Sequence record: OZ035771.1
Reading direction: 5' to 3' (one strand)
DNA: 64,000 nt
Origin: Phapecoctavirus DIJ07P2
In this document: positions 9,705 to 42,099 of the stretch, one piece after another
Layout: each line of letters begins with the position of its first letter
Numbering within the stretch: position 1 is the stretch's first letter
The notes under the pieces: model-generated
Seen by the model: the letters and a program-made list of their open reading frames with translations, nothing else
The model's database searches: none
What the model was told of the DNA's origin: nothing
Made by a program: the position numbers and the translations under genes

Positions 9705-9720
9705 AAAAAAGGAGATACAA

Positions 9721-22494: not shown

Positions 22495-24648
22495 ATGAAA
22501 CAAGCTATATTTACTGTCACGCGAGACAAGAGAGTAAATGCGAGTTCATTTAACTACACGACTGTTGACGGAACAGCAGTCGCTGGTAGAGATTATATAG
22601 CAAAATCGGGAACACTTGTGTTCCCTGATGATGCTGATTCTGCTACCATTGTGGTTGAAGTATTTGAACGACCAAAGAACTCAATAGATCTTAACTTCTC
22701 CCTCCAAGTTTCAGGGATTAGTCAAAATAACATGATGGTTGAAACGACCATCAATTGTATTATAACTACTATCCAAGAAAATACTACTCCAATAACTTGG
22801 ACTACAAAAGACGTTAAAATGTTCTCTCCTATGTATTGGACAATAGATTCTCAAGCAACGGAAAGTTGTTCTATTGTATCTCATGGAGACTCTTTTACTG
22901 CAAGATTTGTAAACAGAACAACAGCAGGTTTGGCAGGGGTTATCTGGAGCACAGTTGACAAATATGACCATAAAGGTGTTGGGTATTTACCCCACACAGA
23001 TTTAAGTTCAGAGAAACTTTGGTTTAAAATGGAAATTAGTCAAAACATGCCAGGTTTTAAAGAAGAACCTTTGGCGCCAACTTTGACTGTAACTCTCTTG
23101 GATAAAAGTGTCCACTATGTTAGTTTAGGATTTTATGCTTCAGATATTTCAGAAGATGGTAAAACAGCTACAATCAAATTAGATTTTGGTAATATCTTCT
23201 CTGGTCCTAATAATGATATTCCTTTGGACATGAGTGCTGTAGATAATATTTTCTTCTCTTTGATTACAGCAAGGTATGAAGAAATAGAAGAGGTTGTACC
23301 TATTGACAGTCAAGAGGCTTGGTTTACTTTCACTCTTCTTGAACCTACCTCTGGTTACAGTATGATGAAAGTCAGCAACCTTGTCCAGCCTGAACATGAT
23401 ATTCGCATGTGCACATCTTATGATGATATGTATAACCTGACTCCAGAGAGAGTTATTTATAATACATATGCACTAGGTTATCGTGGGATGATTAACCATT
23501 ATAACGGAATGTCTCACTATTATGAGTTCTCATGGAATGGAACATCTTGGGCTTTAAATAAATCTGTTTTCCTGAATCCGGCTACAGAAGCTTGGCTTAA
23601 CAGCTTCCATTCTATAGCAAACGAGAAGGGCTACACAATAATGAACTCTTTAAGTTTTGAATTGATGAGCACAGTTTGTCCTGTAGAATGGGTCCAGCAT
23701 GATTGGAACGATGCTCTTGCAGCAACAGGGTATAAACCTCCTAGTTATGTGTTGTCTCCAACTATTGACGAAGGTATGGAATATTTGCAAAATGTTATTA
23801 ATAAAATAGCATCTATTTCGCAAGCTAATAATATTCCAGTTGTCATTCAAATTGGTGAGCCTTGGTGGTGGTATAATACAGCAAGTAAAATGCCTTGCAT
23901 ATATGATTACACTACCAAACTGGCATTCAACACAGAAACAGGTTTATTTGCACAAGATGCAGGAACAATAGATAATTATAAAACAGGAACGCCGTTTGAC
24001 GAATACTATGCATTTTTGTCTCGGAAACTAGGATTAAGAGTTACAAAGTTTGCAACAGATACTAGAGCAACTTACCCAGGAGCCAAGGTAACATTGCTTC
24101 CGTTCTTGCCATCAATTATCGGCAACGGTTTGATGGAGAAAGTTAACTTCCCGTCTGATTACTACATTCCTGAAGCTTTTGATTTTTACTGTTCAGAGTG
24201 TTACGACTGGCTTCTGGAAGGTAAAATGATGAAAGCATTCGATGCAATTACCATACCACATGAAAAATTAGGTTTTGAATATTCTGATATTCACTATCTT
24301 TCGGGTTTTGTTCCAGATGCTACTCTTGCACCTTTGTATGGCTTCGATCCTGAATCAAACTACCGCACGTATCTTTGGAAAATGATTATAGGTAATATAG
24401 TGTTGAACGCCAATAAGTTCAATGGGCTTACACAATATATATGGGCCTATCCTCAAATAATGCATGATTCCATCACGGTAGTTAATTCTCAATCCCAAGT
24501 TTTCTATATGGGTAATGTGCCTTTGAATTGTTATTTGCAAGATATCACTCTTAAACAAGCAAATGTTGAGATTGCTACCATAAGTGGAATTACATTAGCT
24601 ACTAAATCTGGAGAAGATTTAGTAACAACACAAAAATTTTATATATAG
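22495..24648 (+). CDS. tail-associated protein with N-terminal Calx-beta-like domain
   Basis: 717 aa; N-terminus FTVTRDKRVNASSFNYTTVDGTAVAGRDYIAKSGTLVFPDDADSATIVVEVFE matches the Calx-beta pattern (TxDGTAxAGxDY...F). Confidence 0.4.
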   Translation: MKQAIFTVTRDKRVNASSFNYTTVDGTAVAGRDYIAKSGTLVFPDDADSATIVVEVFERPKNSIDLNFSLQVSGISQNNMMVETTINCIITTIQENTTPITWTTKDVKMFSPMYWTIDSQATESCSIVSHGDSFTARFVNRTTAGLAGVIWSTVDKYDHKGVGYLPHTDLSSEKLWFKMEISQNMPGFKEEPLAPTLTVTLLDKSVHYVSLGFYASDISEDGKTATIKLDFGNIFSGPNNDIPLDMSAVDNIFFSLITARYEEIEEVVPIDSQEAWFTFTLLEPTSGYSMMKVSNLVQPEHDIRMCTSYDDMYNLTPERVIYNTYALGYRGMINHYNGMSHYYEFSWNGTSWALNKSVFLNPATEAWLNSFHSIANEKGYTIMNSLSFELMSTVCPVEWVQHDWNDALAATGYKPPSYVLSPTIDEGMEYLQNVINKIASISQANNIPVVIQIGEPWWWYNTASKMPCIYDYTTKLAFNTETGLFAQDAGTIDNYKTGTPFDEYYAFLSRKLGLRVTKFATDTRATYPGAKVTLLPFLPSIIGNGLMEKVNFPSDYYIPEAFDFYCSECYDWLLEGKMMKAFDAITIPHEKLGFEYSDIHYLSGFVPDATLAPLYGFDPESNYRTYLWKMIIGNIVLNANKFNGLTQYIWAYPQIMHDSITVVNSQSQVFYMGNVPLNCYLQDITLKQANVEIATISGITLATKSGEDLVTTQKFYI

Positions 24649-24656
24649 GAGTAAAA

Positions 24657-25796
24657 ATGTCAACTACAATTACTAATTTACCCGAAACATCAAAAGTTAA
24701 TGGTTCAGATTACCTGGTTTTAGATCAATCTGATAAAACTGTTAAAAGCACAGTTTCCAACTTTCTTGCTGACACTGGGGTGGTTTTAGCCACCCAGTTG
24801 AAAGATACAGATGGAGCAGATTTAATACAATCCTCAAATGGTAATACTGTTCAGGAAGAGTTGAATAACAATCTTCTTAATGATCGTGAACAGTGGCGTC
24901 GTAGTCTTGCCGAGGCTGGGTTAACTCTTGTTGATGGTAGTTTTGAAGAAGGGGCTACAGTGGGCAGTGTAACTGATGCTGTCTGGTACATAGCGGGTGC
25001 TCAGTGCTACACATGGGGGTCTGGTTTCCCTAAAGATGTACCACCTAAATCAACCCCGACATCAACTGGTGGTGTTGGAACAGGTGCGTGGGTTAGCGTC
25101 GGTGATGCATTATTGCGTGGACAACTTGCATCGTCAGATGGTCTTAAATTGATTGGGCAATGTGAAAGTTTTTCTGAACTTCAATCTGTTATTCCAGAAT
25201 ATGAAGGGCAGAGAATATTTCTTAAAGGGTGGCATTCAGGGTCTGTTCTGGGATCTGGTTGGTTCATGGCAGAATCAACCACTCAGGCTGACAACGGAGG
25301 AACCATTGCTGGTTCGGGTAGCCTTAAGTGGGTGAAAATTGAAACTGATATCAACTCCTATACATTCGGTGCATTGCCAACTGATACTGATTTTCTTAAC
25401 CCAGTTCAGGCAGCATTTGATGCTTCCGCATACACAAAATATACAGTTAACTTTACTGAAGACCATGCGTTACCGGTTTCTTCATCTGTAACTGTGAAAT
25501 CGGGATCAAAAGTTAAATGGTCAAATAATAAAGCATATATAACTCTGACAGCCGACTCTGGTTATGGTGGTGTTATTGCTTTACTTGGTGGTTACGGTGG
25601 TAACAGTGGAACATGTCAGGATGTATACATGGAGAACCCGAGAATCGACGGCGGCAATATCGGACATCCCACAGGCGATACTCAGGGACAAAATGGTATT
25701 TCAGGGGCTAATTTTGTAAAAAATGTACGCATTGTAGGTGGGCATATAAAAACTGTGCCAGGTCTAGTTCAGCTAAAGTGCCTGAATATCCAATAA
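24657..25796 (+). CDS. tailspike/tail fiber, N-terminal part (probably one gene with 25778..26893)
   Basis: 379 aa; N-terminal fiber-anchor-like segment; ends inside an apparently continuous beta-helix-like sequence; overlaps next ORF by 19 nt in -1 frame. Confidence 0.45.
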   Translation: MSTTITNLPETSKVNGSDYLVLDQSDKTVKSTVSNFLADTGVVLATQLKDTDGADLIQSSNGNTVQEELNNNLLNDREQWRRSLAEAGLTLVDGSFEEGATVGSVTDAVWYIAGAQCYTWGSGFPKDVPPKSTPTSTGGVGTGAWVSVGDALLRGQLASSDGLKLIGQCESFSELQSVIPEYEGQRIFLKGWHSGSVLGSGWFMAESTTQADNGGTIAGSGSLKWVKIETDINSYTFGALPTDTDFLNPVQAAFDASAYTKYTVNFTEDHALPVSSSVTVKSGSKVKWSNNKAYITLTADSGYGGVIALLGGYGGNSGTCQDVYMENPRIDGGNIGHPTGDTQGQNGISGANFVKNVRIVGGHIKTVPGLVQLKCLNIQ

Positions 25797-26893
25797 CAGG
25801 GGGTAAAGGTATTTATTTTGAGTATGGTGCTGAGGATGTAATGGTGTCAGATGTCACTGCGGAAAACTGTTACATAAGTTTCGGTGGCTCTGGACAAGAA
25901 CTTTATGGGTCTAACCCTGGTCACGTTCGACGCTTACAGTTCTTGGGTTGCGTTGGTATTAACTGTGAATCGGTTCTTATTGTCTCCCGTGCGTATGTCG
26001 GTAATGTTGACAACCATGATGCAGGATATTGTGATATTAAGGCGGATATAAAAGCATATAATTGTGGCCTAGGTGGTTCTCTTTCATCCTTGCCGTCTAC
26101 TGCGTTTGACCGTGGGCTGGTGATAATGGACCGTGCATCAGACTGTGATGTCAAGGTGCGTCTCATAAACCTGCCTGATTATGGAAAGATTGACTCGTTG
26201 CTGCGCGGTGTGCGCATGTACAATTGCAAAGTCGATATATCCGCCAATGCCGAAACACGCACGCTATTCAATAATAACGCAATTGTCGGAGGGCAGGTTA
26301 ACGGGGTTTTCCGTAACAACATAATCAGCCTGTCAAATATCGGTAATACCGATTATGCGGCTGATATGCTCAACCCTGATACGCAGCAGAAGGGTAACGA
26401 CGTGAAGTTGTATATAAACAACCCACTCATAGCTCTATTGCCTGCCAGTGCGTCAGGGCACGGATTGATGCTTGAGTTGATTCGCATGGATACAAACAAC
26501 CCAGTTCAGCGGATAAAAGGTCTAGCCGCTGACATTTACCGTAGATTTAATTCGTGGTCGCTAGTTCCAAATGGCAGCCTGGACCTCACTGGTGTTAGTG
26601 TTGGATCTAATTACATCAGAACTGTAAACAGAGATGGTAGCGTAACAATTAGATTCAACGTGACAATGGCAGCAGGTGGCGCGGCACAAGTATTCAACTT
26701 CCCTCTGTCCTTACCCGCAAGTGCAACTATTTTGTTTGCAAAAACGCAGAACGGCCCAGGATCAGGGGTTCAGGGTTCTCCGTCTGTGAATGCTGTGACA
26801 ACATCGAGTATCACTTTGCAGGATCAAAGTTCGTCGGCAGCTCAACATGTTGTCTATATCGAGGTGACTGGCGTGGTTCCAAACCCTGCATAA
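25778..26893 (+). CDS. tailspike C-terminal beta-helix domain (possible depolymerase), likely continuation of 24657..25796
   Basis: 371 aa, GTG start without convincing RBS; frame open upstream from 25712; G/N/V/D-rich beta-helix-like repeats; visibly more GC-rich than flanks. Confidence 0.45.
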   Translation: MPEYPITGGKGIYFEYGAEDVMVSDVTAENCYISFGGSGQELYGSNPGHVRRLQFLGCVGINCESVLIVSRAYVGNVDNHDAGYCDIKADIKAYNCGLGGSLSSLPSTAFDRGLVIMDRASDCDVKVRLINLPDYGKIDSLLRGVRMYNCKVDISANAETRTLFNNNAIVGGQVNGVFRNNIISLSNIGNTDYAADMLNPDTQQKGNDVKLYINNPLIALLPASASGHGLMLELIRMDTNNPVQRIKGLAADIYRRFNSWSLVPNGSLDLTGVSVGSNYIRTVNRDGSVTIRFNVTMAAGGAAQVFNFPLSLPASATILFAKTQNGPGSGVQGSPSVNAVTTSSITLQDQSSSAAQHVVYIEVTGVVPNPA

Positions 26894-27244
26894 AACTGTA
26901 GGTGCAAATGGGCTTCATTAAGGTTCACACAAGCTATGTCCTGCAAGCGCATGTCATCGCCATGTGATAAAATGATGAAAACATATTGTAGCAGGATTAA
27001 TCTTGTCTTTAGTTACTATCGTACTAACTCAAAGTGTTGTCACTACCACTGCAAGCCCCTCCAAAGAGGGGCTTACTTAGAAAAACAAAGAGGTTGTTAT
27101 GAACGAAATGTTCTCCCAAGGCGGTATTGCCCCAGGTATTACTGCCATTAGTCTTAGTGCTGCTGTACTTGTGCATTCAGCGGGTTCTGTAGACCTTGGG
27201 GAATTAGCTGTATATCGTGATTTAAAAAGTAATGAGAACGCACC

Positions 27245-27487
27245 ATGAGAAAATTTTTAATCGGAATGTTTTGTACTTATCCAAACAACAAAATCAGTTC
27301 TACTAAAGTGTGGAACGCACTGGGAATGCTAACCATGACAGGCATGTTTATCTTTTTAGGAATAGAAAAAGAAATTCCTGAATGGATGGGTTGGGCTTTT
27401 GTTTTCATGATAACCCCTTCTCGCCTCATGAAAAATCTTATTGATTTACGTTGGGGCAGATCACAATCTACCAAAGAGGATGACTAA
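27245..27487 (+). CDS. small membrane protein (2 predicted TM helices)
   Basis: 80 aa; hydrophobic stretches GMLTMTGMFIFLGI and WMGWAFVFMITP; stop overlaps next start (TAATGG). Confidence 0.3.
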   Translation: MRKFLIGMFCTYPNNKISSTKVWNALGMLTMTGMFIFLGIEKEIPEWMGWAFVFMITPSRLMKNLIDLRWGRSQSTKEDD

Positions 27488-42050: not shown

Positions 42051-42063
42051 ATCTTCTCCTATA

Positions 42064-42081
42064 AAGGGGCAGAAGCCCCTT
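42064..42081 (-). terminator. terminator downstream of DNA polymerase gene
   Basis: AAGGGGC-AGAA-GCCCCTT hairpin; on the minus strand followed by TTTATAG. Confidence 0.5.
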
Positions 42082-42099
42082 ATAAAACAATACGTTAGA

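What the first reader, a model, noticed from the sequence alone, without database searches (positions are those of the whole stretch)
24657..26893. Tailspike gene split by a -1 frame break, with a GC-rich host-like C-terminal domain
ORFs 24657..25796 and 25778..26893 overlap by 19 nt. The downstream frame is open from 25712, and joining them near 25775 gives a continuous beta-helix-like sequence. The second ORF starts with GTG and has no good RBS. An A_AAA_AAT heptamer at 25718-25724 lies in the overlap window, but the -1 frame product immediately after it is Cys-rich and unconvincing. This could be programmed frameshifting, an authentic frameshift mutation or a sequencing indel. Composition becomes clearly more GC-rich from about 24,900 to 26,890, suggesting a horizontally acquired receptor-binding or depolymerase cassette.
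Basis: seen in the sequence. Interest (0 to 1): 0.5.

Follow-up and report, generated by a model that had tools for sequence, protein, structure and literature searches.

The report
Tailspike gene broken by one-base deletion
One of this E. coli phage's several tailspike genes is cut in two because one A is missing from a run of six; this is an ordinary slippage mutation in a recently swapped receptor-binding cassette, not programmed frameshifting.

Summary
ORFs 24657..25796 and 25778..26893 overlap by 19 nt in a -1 relationship, and the region is the most GC-rich 2 kb of the window.

The break is not at the A_AAA_AAT heptamer. It is a 1-nt deletion in the A-run at 25748-25752. The window has A5, while 11 loci with an uninterrupted gene keep this codon stretch in frame. 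Restoring one A gives a 745-aa protein that reads GGHIKNCARSSSAKVPEYPITGGKG, as in all homologs.

The assembly is otherwise clean: one intergenic indel in 46.6 kb against phage EF1-1. A Logan re-assembly of the reads shows the same break.

A second phage (SRR22520433) carries the same deletion plus an extra G 51 nt downstream. Its closest allele is an intact one, so the deletion either recurred or moved by recombination.

The cassette 25135-27250 is about 99.4-100 % identical to phages whose flanks are only 76 % identical. It also occurs in SU10-like and P22-like phages, and no match was found in 5,426 complete E. coli genomes. It was therefore acquired horizontally from other phages; nothing ties it to the host.

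Verdict: most likely an authentic slippage frameshift that inactivates a redundant tailspike. Interest is low.

The parts
24657..25796 (+). N-terminal fragment of the tailspike gene as it now reads (379 aa). The last 14 residues, TVPGLVQLKCLNIQ, are out-of-frame junk, followed by a premature TAA at 25794-25796.
   Evidence: PF18668 Tail_spike_N matches aa 93-150. Tail-spike PHROGs match. The exact protein is P0008 in NCBI and Logan.
24657..24814 (+). N-terminal anchor segment, shared with the tailspike in this slot in other Stephanstirmvirinae-type phages.
   Evidence: 90-98 % DNA identity to many Phapecoctavirus/Justusliebigvirus records. 94-96 % identity to L007/L008.
24815..25134 (+). 320-nt module encoding the Tail_spike_N (CBA120 TSP-like) adaptor domain. 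It is present here and absent from the 636-aa forms of the same tailspike.
   Evidence: Alignment gap against L002, L005, L007 and L008. Pfam hit. PDB sequence hits 8x8m, 5w6h and 4oj5 cover only this part.
25135..27250 (+). Mobile receptor-binding cassette: beta-helix catalytic module, C-terminal domain, intergenic spacer and the small downstream ORF. It is GC-rich relative to the genome.
   Evidence: ~99.4 % identical overall to L007/L008 (most 100-nt blocks 0.97-1.00), whose flanks are ~76 % identical. GC data.
25718..25724 (+). A_AAA_AAT heptamer. Ordinary V-K-N coding sequence, not the site of the frame change.
   Evidence: The same sequence is present in intact alleles L002, L003 and L006-L008. 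A shift here would replace the conserved NVRIVGGHI, including the invariant G361.
25748..25752 (+). A5 homopolymer, the site of the 1-nt deletion. The closely related intact alleles have A6 (ATA AAA AAC = I-K-N).
   Evidence: DNA alignments. The repaired protein matches all homologs, and K365, N366, C367, R369 and S370 are invariant.
25751..26893 (+). True continuation of the tailspike reading frame after the deletion (NCARSSSAKVPEYPITGGKG... to the natural stop). This is 380 codons of beta-helix and C-terminal domain.
   Evidence: Near-identical intact 636-aa proteins are P0011, P0013-P0016, P0019 and P0020.
25778..26893 (+). ORF2 as listed mechanically from the GTG, with no RBS. A more plausible restart is the ATG at 25841, which has GAGG 5 nt upstream (350 aa, the product called by NCBI/Logan as P0010). 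That sequence is also present in intact alleles.
25799..25803 (+). G5 run. In the second broken phage (L005) it is G6, a second lesion in that allele.
27099..27248 (+). 49-aa ORF at the 3' end of the cassette. It is a shortened copy of the N-terminal anchor of SU10-like podophage tailspikes.
   Evidence: the 102-aa version in L002 is 81 % identical to P0017 aa 1-92, and the 49-aa version is 76 % identical over 29 aa. The extra ~157 nt in L002 is seen.

Best explanation
The two ORFs are the halves of one 745-codon tailspike gene. The gene encodes an N-terminal anchor, a Tail_spike_N adaptor, a right-handed beta-helix glycan-depolymerase-type module and a C-terminal domain.

The gene lost one A from an A6 tract (ATA AAA AAC became ATA AAA AC at 25748-25752). 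This is the kind of change produced by replication slippage. Translation now runs 14 codons out of frame and stops at 25794-25796. The product is a 379-aa fragment that keeps the anchor and adaptor domains but only the first part of the beta-helix. This receptor-binding function is therefore most likely lost.

The phage tolerates the loss because it carries several other tailspikes and fibres, at roughly 31.6-39.4 kb in the window.

**Shown**
- The position and nature of the lesion.
- Intactness of the gene in the other relatives examined (L005 is the one other broken copy).
- A clean assembly elsewhere.
- A second phage with the same lesion.
- The mobility of the cassette.

**Inferred**
- That the lesion is in the DNA of the phage rather than in the reads.
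- That the truncated protein is non-functional as an enzyme.
- That the loss is tolerated or selected because of redundancy.
For: 1. **Location of the break.** Restoring one A gives GGHIKNCARSSSAKVPEYPITGGKG, identical to P0001-P0007. K-N-C-x-R-S is invariant even in P0009, which is 41 % identical.
2. **DNA of intact alleles.** L002, L003 and L006-L013 have A6. The window, L001 and L005 have A5.
3. **Near-identical intact alleles.** Seven distinct intact 636-aa proteins are at least 99 % identical in the shared part. Eight loci were read at the DNA level.
4. **Clean assembly.**
   - One indel, intergenic, in 46.6 kb against EF1-1.
   - 202 homopolymers of at least 5 nt lie in gap-free aligned blocks.
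   - There are 0 gaps in 8.4 kb of flanks against L002.
5. **Reproduced from reads.** The Logan re-assembly of ERR12949680 is identical over 7,140 nt, including the break.
6. **Second phage.** SRR22520433 (L005) has the same A5 plus a G5-to-G6 insertion 51 nt downstream. Apart from that G it shows no indel against the window in 10.4 kb.
7. **No frameshifting signals.**
   - The tract is not conserved: the distant homologs have ATC/ATT AAA AAC.
   - The downstream RNA fold is unremarkable, z = -1.1.
8. **Single ORF is the norm.** The syntenic slot holds one intact tailspike ORF in relatives, for example 739 aa in EF1-1.
9. **Redundancy.** EF1-1 annotates further tail spike and fibre genes in the syntenic region. 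The group is known for several co-expressed tailspikes (PMC11984140).
10. **Slippage precedent.** Homopolymers of at least 6 nt in coliphages show +/-1 frameshift variants at about 3e-4 per tract (bioRxiv 10.1101/2025.10.21.683753).
Against: - No reads could be inspected. The NCBI and Logan assemblies of this phage probably derive from the same reads, so they are not independent at the read level.
- The sequencing platforms of ERR12949680 and SRR22520433 are unknown.
- Two homopolymer indels within 55 nt in L005 would also fit a platform prone to homopolymer errors. However, apart from that extra G, no other indel appears in 10.4 kb of L005.
- Loss of function is inferred, not measured. Low-level -1 slippage of tRNA-Lys on A_AAA at the break would regenerate exactly the wild-type protein.
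- Internal initiation at the ATG at 25841 could produce a free C-terminal fragment.
Confidence: 0.75

Rival explanations
1. Sequencing or consensus error. The phage really has A6 and an intact 745-aa tailspike, and the A5 is an under-called homopolymer.
For: - The lesion is a single-base change in homopolymer length, the classic error type.
- The intact alleles are otherwise almost identical: 5 substitutions in 1.76 kb against L007.
- The window's own branch carries only two synonymous changes, so the break is very recent or not real.
- The NCBI and Logan contigs likely share the same reads.
Against: - 202 homopolymers of at least 5 nt (42 of at least 6 nt) lie in gap-free alignment with EF1-1. 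The only indel in 46.6 kb is intergenic.
- A k-mer-based re-assembly gives a 143-kb contig with the same A5.
- A second run from a different archive prefix (SRR22520433) has the same A5 on a distinguishable allele, with 8 substitutions and a different N-terminal architecture.
Confidence: 0.12
2. Adaptive contingency locus. The A6 tract is a reversible on/off switch that lets these multivalent phages toggle this tailspike, and the window shows the OFF state.
For: - The ON allele has a homopolymer of at least 6 nt, the criterion used for putative phage contingency loci. In that study an A-tract deletion in T2 agt reverted about 1000-fold faster than a point mutation.
- The A5 state is homoplasic among alleles less than 1 % divergent. 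L005 (broken) groups with L007 (intact) at 25463, 25676 and 27095-27110, whereas the window does not.
Against: - A6 is at the bottom of the hypermutable range.
- The tract is not conserved. L014 and L015 use ATC/ATT and so have only an in-frame A5.
- The cited study found such tracts under-represented in tail-fibre-type genes, at 0.77x.
- Recombination within this highly mobile cassette can explain the homoplasy. A four-gamete conflict also exists among the SNPs: 25463/25676 against 26606.
- L005 has acquired a second lesion, which looks like decay rather than switching.
Confidence: 0.1
3. Programmed recoding. A -1 ribosomal frameshift, at A_AAA_AAT or at A_AAA in the break tract, or transcriptional slippage makes both a short and a full-length tailspike from the split gene.
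For: - A correctly phased X_XXY_YYZ heptamer lies at 25718-25724.
- A P-site slip of tRNA-Lys on A_AAA at 25748-25751 would regenerate exactly the wild-type sequence HIK-NCAR (inference).
Against: - No divergent relative has the two-frame arrangement. Its only other carrier, L005, has a near-identical allele with a second lesion, and every other homolog has a single ORF.
- The heptamer also occurs in the intact alleles read across it.
- A shift at the heptamer would replace the conserved NVRIVGGHI.
- The break tract is not a tandem-slippage heptamer.
- The downstream fold has z = -1.1, and 32 of 200 shuffles fold at least as well.
- A5 is shorter than the A/T runs at which transcriptional slippage is usually reported (my recollection, not checked here).
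- In L005 the -1 frame hits TAA immediately after the G6.
Confidence: 0.03

Closest known systems
Tailspikes of the CBA120 / phi92 type (CBA120 TSP2 6w4q/5w6p, TSP4 5w6h; Klebsiella K2-2 TSP 8iq9; Depo32 7vz3)
   Same: - The modular build is the same: N-terminal anchor, Tail_spike_N adaptor domain (PF18668, E = 5e-17; PDB sequence hits), parallel beta-helix body and a C-terminal domain.
- Foldseek probability is 1.0, with E down to 5e-14.
- It sits in a genome with several other tailspikes, as described for phi92-like phages (PMC11984140).
   Different: - The beta-helix module has no solved relative detectable by sequence.
- It is only 10-15 % identical to the structural matches.
- TM-scores are 0.3-0.4, from a model with mean pLDDT 62.6.
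- Substrate and chemistry are unknown.
- The copy in the window is broken.
Homopolymer contingency loci in coliphages (T2 agt, T4 rIIA; bioRxiv 10.1101/2025.10.21.683753)
   Same: A +/-1 change in an A-tract of at least 6 nt switches a gene off through a frameshift. Slippage is the likely mechanism, and reversion is possible in principle.
   Different: - The agt tract shown to act as a contingency locus spans bases 288-296 of the gene, about 9 nt. Here the tract is only A6, and A5 after the deletion.
- No reversibility or within-population variation has been shown here.
- The tract is not conserved in distant homologs.
- One carrier has a second lesion.
Programmed -1 frameshifting in phage tail genes and dnaX (tail assembly chaperone G/GT; A_AAA_AAG). 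Recalled from established knowledge.
   Same: There are two overlapping ORFs in a 0/-1 relationship within a tail gene cluster, and an A-rich heptamer in the overlap window.
   Different: - In those systems the two-frame layout and the slippery site are conserved across relatives, and both products are needed.
- Here the relatives have one uninterrupted ORF, apart from L005, which carries the same deletion. The frame change is a deletion 30 nt past the heptamer.
Receptor-binding cassette exchange between unrelated phages. This is a general phenomenon, as in the abstract of PMC10579305 listed (not read in full).
   Same: The same catalytic module is fused to different N-terminal anchors in several phage types:
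- Stephanstirmvirinae-type myoviruses
- an SU10-like podophage (L006)
- a contig with P22-type genes (L015)
- two other contexts (L003, L014)

The boundaries are sharp, at about 25,135 and 27,250.
   Different: Nothing unusual. The very high identity (~99.4 %) across flanks that are only 76 % identical simply shows that the transfer is recent.

Membership tests
Programmed -1 ribosomal frameshift site | The frame change occurs at a slippery X_XXY_YYZ heptamer. | tested here: not met
   Homolog alignment places the change at 25748-25752, 30 nt past the heptamer. The break tract (ATA AAA ACT) is not a tandem-slippage heptamer.
Programmed -1 ribosomal frameshift site | The two-frame arrangement is conserved in related genomes. 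| tested here: not met
   The homologs P0001-P0007 and P0009, the seven near-identical 636-aa proteins and 11 DNA loci are single uninterrupted ORFs. Only L005 shares the break, and it has a second lesion.
Programmed -1 ribosomal frameshift site | A stimulatory RNA structure lies downstream of the shift site. | tested here: not met
   The 100 nt after the break fold at -24.5 kcal/mol, z = -1.12, and 32 of 200 shuffles fold at least as well. Pseudoknots were not evaluated.
Phage tailspike (parallel beta-helix glycan depolymerase type) | N-terminal particle-binding or adaptor module. | tested here: met
   PF18668 Tail_spike_N scores 62 bits against a cutoff of 25. PHROG tail-spike families match. 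PDB hits 8x8m, 5w6h and 4oj5 cover aa 75-230.
Phage tailspike (parallel beta-helix glycan depolymerase type) | Right-handed parallel beta-helix body. | tested here: met
   - An AF2 model of P0001 (93 % identical) shows stacked short strands over about aa 200-500, with pLDDT mostly 70-90 there.
- The Foldseek top 46 hits are nearly all phage tailspike or depolymerase structures.
- Precomputed PF27114 Phage_tail_beta is recorded on the homologs and on ORF1.
- Caveat: mean pLDDT is 62.6 and TM-scores are 0.3-0.4.
Phage tailspike (parallel beta-helix glycan depolymerase type) | Trimer formation and glycan-cleaving activity on a defined receptor. | not testable with these tools
   No catalytic residues or substrate could be assigned. 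This needs biochemistry.
Contingency locus (hypermutable simple-sequence repeat) | A homopolymer of at least 6 nt inside the coding sequence in the ON state. | tested here: met
   A6 is present in L002, L003 and L006-L013. The threshold follows bioRxiv 10.1101/2025.10.21.683753.
Contingency locus (hypermutable simple-sequence repeat) | Recurrent and reversible +/-1 changes at the tract. | tested here: inconclusive
   A5 occurs on two allele backgrounds that do not form a clade. Recombination is an equally good explanation, because the SNPs also show a four-gamete conflict.
Contingency locus (hypermutable simple-sequence repeat) | Elevated within-population length variation and a phenotype switch. 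| not testable with these tools
   This needs read-level data and host-range assays.
Pseudogene (decaying gene) | A disabling lesion relative to intact orthologs. | tested here: met
   A 1-nt deletion leads to a premature TAA at 25794-25796.
Pseudogene (decaying gene) | Accumulation of further lesions or relaxed selection. | tested here: inconclusive
   - L005 has a second indel and a 2N:1S ratio on its own branch.
- The window's branch has 0N:2S.
- The allele family as a whole shows N:S = 5:15.
- The numbers are too small to decide.

The most novel reading that the evidence does not exclude
The A6 tract in this mobile tailspike cassette is a genuine mutational hot spot. On this reading it has been hit independently in at least two phages and works as a reversible on/off switch, a phage contingency locus in a receptor-binding gene. 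A multivalent phage could then shed and regain one of its tailspikes according to the hosts it meets.
Probability: 0.12. Interest if true: 0.5.

Novelty: new member of a known kind. Interest (0 to 1): 0.2.

Why it matters
- **Annotation.** The two ORFs should be annotated as one disrupted tailspike gene, not as two proteins and not as a recoding site.
- **Host range.** The predicted host range of this phage should not count this receptor specificity.
- **Recent gene flow.** The same ~2.1-kb receptor-binding cassette is nearly identical in phages whose flanks are only 76 % identical. It is also fused to podophage and P22-type anchors. This is a clear, datable example of recent cassette traffic.
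- **Possible hot spot.** Two sequenced phages share the same homopolymer deletion, which makes this a cheap test case for the recent claim that short homopolymers act as contingency loci in phages.

Tried and rejected
- **Frameshift at the A_AAA_AAT heptamer.** Rejected. The -1 product would read KKCTHCRWAY in place of the conserved KNVRIVGGHI, and the heptamer is present in intact alleles.
- **A second frame break in the next gene (26936..27151 / 27099..27248).** Rejected. L002 simply has ~157 extra nt there, and the 49-aa ORF is an in-frame shortened version.
- **A generally error-prone assembly.** Rejected.
- **Host origin of the cassette.** Megablast of 25100-27130 against 5,426 complete E. 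coli genomes found nothing. Only near-identity was searched; the 'distant' mode was not run.
- **INPHARED phages.** tblastn found only weak N-terminal matches, so no deposited phage in that release carries the module.
- **A5/A6 junction pattern scans.** IMG/VR and JGI metagenome contigs gave 0 hits.
- **Structure prediction of the repaired protein.** P0001 was modelled instead.
- **Literature searches for the run and assembly accessions.** Nothing was found, so platform, host and passage history remain unknown.
- **Promoter and terminator scan of 24300-27400.** Nothing above chance, and no promoter candidate for ORF2.
- **Search on frameshift-motif efficiencies.** It failed on syntax and was not repeated.
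Full report
**Observation**

The ORF list confirms 24657..25796 (379 aa) and 25778..26893 (371 aa, GTG start), which overlap by 19 nt. The second frame is -1 relative to the first and is open from 25712, after a TAA at 25709-25711. The A_AAA_AAT heptamer is at 25718-25724 in the correct phase (GTA AAA AAT). No Shine-Dalgarno-like sequence precedes the GTG.

The compositional claim also holds. The stretch 24900-26890 is 45.5 % GC against 39.4 % for the window. The SD of 2-kb windows is 1.9 %, so z = 3.2, and this is the highest 2-kb window in the 64 kb. ORF2 has the highest GC3 (0.449) of any ORF of at least 200 aa, whereas ORF1's GC3 (0.29) is typical.

**What the genome and gene are**

The window is about 98.7 % identical over 24 kb to Escherichia phage EF1-1 and Klebsiella phage ZCKP1, and it matches Phapecoctavirus- and Justusliebigvirus-named records. 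In EF1-1 the same slot holds a single 739-aa 'tail spike protein'. That slot lies between the non-contractile-tail-sheath-type protein and the baseplate wedge genes.

ORF1 carries PF18668 Tail_spike_N (aa 93-150, 62 bits) and matches many tail-spike PHROGs. ORF2 alone matches nothing in the local Pfam or PHROGs libraries. Only the N-terminal adaptor part has solved relatives by sequence: CBA120 TSP1/2/4 and 8x8m.

An AlphaFold model of the closest intact homolog that could be submitted (P0001, 93 % identical) has mean pLDDT 62.6, with 70-90 over most of the central region. It shows the stacked short strands of a parallel beta-helix. Its Foldseek matches in the PDB are almost all phage tailspike depolymerases: CBA120 TSP2 and TSP4, K2-2 TSP, Depo32 and Fri1 gp49. 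E-values go down to 5e-14 and probability is 1.0, but TM-scores are only 0.3-0.4. The 'tailspike' reading is therefore supported. Substrate and chemistry remain unknown.

**Where the frame breaks**

A search of 5.8 billion proteins returned seven uninterrupted homologs (636-718 aa, 80-93 % identical) that span the junction, plus a 41 %-identical one.

Inserting one A into the A5 run at 25748-25752 yields a 745-aa ORF. Its junction reads VRIVGGHIKNCARSSSAKVPEYPITGGKG, the same as in the homologs. K365, N366, C367, R369 and S370 are invariant in all nine sequences.

At the DNA level the intact genes read CAT/CAC ATA AAA AAC TGT where the window reads CAT ATA AAA ACT GT. The lesion is therefore a 1-nt deletion in an A6 homopolymer, 30 nt downstream of the heptamer.

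The heptamer is also present in the intact alleles read across it, where it encodes V-K-N. A shift there would replace the conserved NVRIVGGHI. More distant homologs use ATC or ATT for the Ile codon and so have only an in-frame A5 (L014, L015). The tract is thus a by-product of I-K-N coding, not a conserved element. The 100 nt after the break fold no better than shuffles (z = -1.1).

**Real mutation or artefact?**

Several results argue against a noisy assembly.
- Only one indel, which is intergenic (at 9705), appears in 46.6 kb aligned to EF1-1 at about 98 % identity.
- 202 homopolymers of at least 5 nt, 42 of them at least 6 nt, sit in gap-free aligned blocks.
- 8.4 kb of flanks align to L002 with no gaps.

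The exact 379-aa product is on record from NCBI (a 144,811-bp contig) and from the Logan re-assembly of run ERR12949680 (143,302 bp). The Logan contig is identical to the window over 7,140 nt, including the break.

More telling is a different phage, SRR22520433 (144,830-bp contig, locus L005). It has the same A5, and its products P0022 (270 aa) and P0018 (350 aa) are the corresponding halves of the shorter 636-aa form of the gene. L005 differs from the window in several ways:
- 8 substitutions in the cassette;
- absence of the 320-nt Tail_spike_N insert;
- 1.5-3.7 % divergence in the flanks;
- an extra G in the G5 run at 25799-25803.

With that extra G its two ORFs are back in one frame, but a TAA sits between them, and the -1 frame also stops right after the G6. 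Apart from that G, L005 has no indel against the window in 10.4 kb.

I could not inspect reads or find the platforms. A read-level artefact therefore remains possible but is the less likely explanation.

**Recurrence or descent?**

Nine near-identical alleles (at least 99.2 % identical) could be compared at the DNA level.
- L005 (broken) shares derived states with L007 (intact) at 25463, 25676 and 27095-27110.
- The window shares 26606T with L007, but groups with the remaining intact alleles at the other sites.

The A5 state is therefore homoplasic on any tree. Either the deletion arose twice (or reverted), or it moved by recombination. The SNPs themselves show a four-gamete conflict, so recombination inside the cassette is a real possibility.

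Among these alleles N:S is 5:15, which indicates purifying selection on the family. The window's own branch has 0N:2S. L005's branch has 2N:1S plus the second indel. The numbers are too small to decide whether selection is relaxed after the break.

A recent preprint reports that homopolymers of at least 6 nt in coliphage genomes carry +/-1 variants at about 3e-4 per tract. It also reports that an A-tract deletion in T2 agt reverts about 1000-fold faster than a point mutation. The same study found such tracts under-represented in tail-fibre-type genes. The ancestral A6 meets that loose criterion. Whether it is used adaptively is not shown.

**The cassette**

Identity to L007 and L008 changes sharply along the region:

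| Window coordinates | Identity to L007/L008 |
|---|---|
| up to ~24,450 | ~75 % |
| N-terminal anchor (24,557-24,814) | 94-96 % |
| 24,815-25,134 | absent from L007/L008 (window-specific insert) |
| 25,135 to ~27,250 | mostly 97-100 % per 100-nt block for L007 (99.4 % overall; L008 has an extra insert near 27,125) |
| beyond ~27,250 | mostly 60-85 % |

This coincides with the GC-rich segment. It is direct evidence of recent transfer between phages whose flanks differ by 24 %.

The same catalytic module is fused to unrelated N-termini in other phage contexts:
- an SU10-like podophage (L006, with SU10 portal and adaptor);
- a contig with P22-type genes (L015);
- L014 (DUF4815 and Peptidase_S74 neighbours);
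- L003 (lysozyme neighbour).

Its GC content is 43-50 % in backgrounds of 37-57 %. No near-identical sequence exists in 5,426 complete E. coli genomes. No INPHARED phage has the module at the protein level. 'Horizontally acquired receptor-binding cassette' is supported. 'Host-like' is not.

**Mechanism and consequence**

Shown: the gene now ends after 365 correct residues plus 14 wrong ones.

Inferred:
- The product keeps the anchor and adaptor domains, so it may still occupy its place in the baseplate.
- It lacks about 60 % of the beta-helix and the C-terminal domain, so enzymatic and receptor-binding function is most likely lost.
- The phage remains viable because it encodes other tailspikes and fibres (EF1-1 annotation of the syntenic 31.7-39.6 kb). 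The group is known for several co-expressed receptor-binding proteins (PMC11984140).

Two ways of making residual protein cannot be excluded, but nothing indicates selection for either.
- A P-site slip of tRNA-Lys on A_AAA at the break would recreate the wild-type protein.
- Initiation at the ATG at 25841, which has GAGG 5 nt upstream, would give a free 350-aa fragment. The same sequence occurs in the intact genes.

**Verdict**

This is a genuine feature, correctly spotted, but ordinary. It is a slippage-type 1-nt deletion that disrupts one redundant tailspike within a recently exchanged cassette. The probabilities I assign are:

| Explanation | Probability |
|---|---|
| Authentic mutation, non-programmed | ~0.75 |
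| Sequencing error | ~0.12 |
| Adaptive contingency switch | ~0.10 |
| Programmed recoding | ~0.03 |

Interest is 0.2. The only point beyond routine is that the same homopolymer deletion appears in two different phages.

Noticed in passing
window 27099-27248 (also L002 7117-7425; L004/EF1-1 27125-27433): The small ORF after the tailspike is a free-standing copy of the N-terminal anchor of SU10-like podophage tailspikes. The 102-aa form is 81 % identical to P0017 aa 1-92. In the window, and likewise in L005 and L007 (which also have a 49-aa ORF here), an internal in-frame deletion cuts it to 49 aa. It lies inside the mobile cassette and may be a scar of cassette exchange.
   Followed up: partly
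window 24815-25134: A 320-nt segment encoding the Tail_spike_N adaptor domain is present in the window but absent from the otherwise near-identical 636-aa forms. The junctions fall at repeated ...D(T/S)DG-(A/L)... motifs (KDTDG|ADLIQ ... ASSDG|LKLIGQ), which suggests module gain or loss by recombination between repeated linker motifs.
   Followed up: partly
L005 5820 (equivalent to window 25799-25803): The second broken allele has G6 instead of G5, 51 nt after the A5. This puts its two ORFs back in one frame, but an in-frame TAA lies between them.
   Followed up: yes
window 9705: This is the only indel against EF1-1 in 46.6 kb, and it is another A-tract length difference. The window has A6 and EF1-1 has A5. 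It is intergenic, immediately upstream of a GGAG ribosome-binding motif (TACTAAAAAAGGAGA).
   Followed up: no
window 42062-42099 and ~42950 (L004 42195-42806 and 43662-44391): EF1-1 has an HNH endonuclease gene (L004 42191-42781) and about 730 extra nt inside its DNA polymerase I CDS. The window lacks both, and its polymerase ORF is 832 aa against a 3,333-nt CDS in EF1-1. This looks like presence/absence of a homing endonuclease, intron or intein.
   Followed up: no
window 27052-27079: A perfect 9-bp GC-rich hairpin (AAGCCCCTC caaa GAGGGGCTT) lies in the spacer after the tailspike gene and is conserved in L002 and the close alleles. It has no T-tract, so the terminator scan did not score it.
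   Followed up: no
L007, L008 (flanks) against the window: Two contigs (GCA_958305495.1 and SRR13870798) belong to a lineage whose flanks are only ~76 % identical to the window, yet they carry the same cassette at ~99.4 % identity. This is a recent transfer between divergent lineages.
   Followed up: yes
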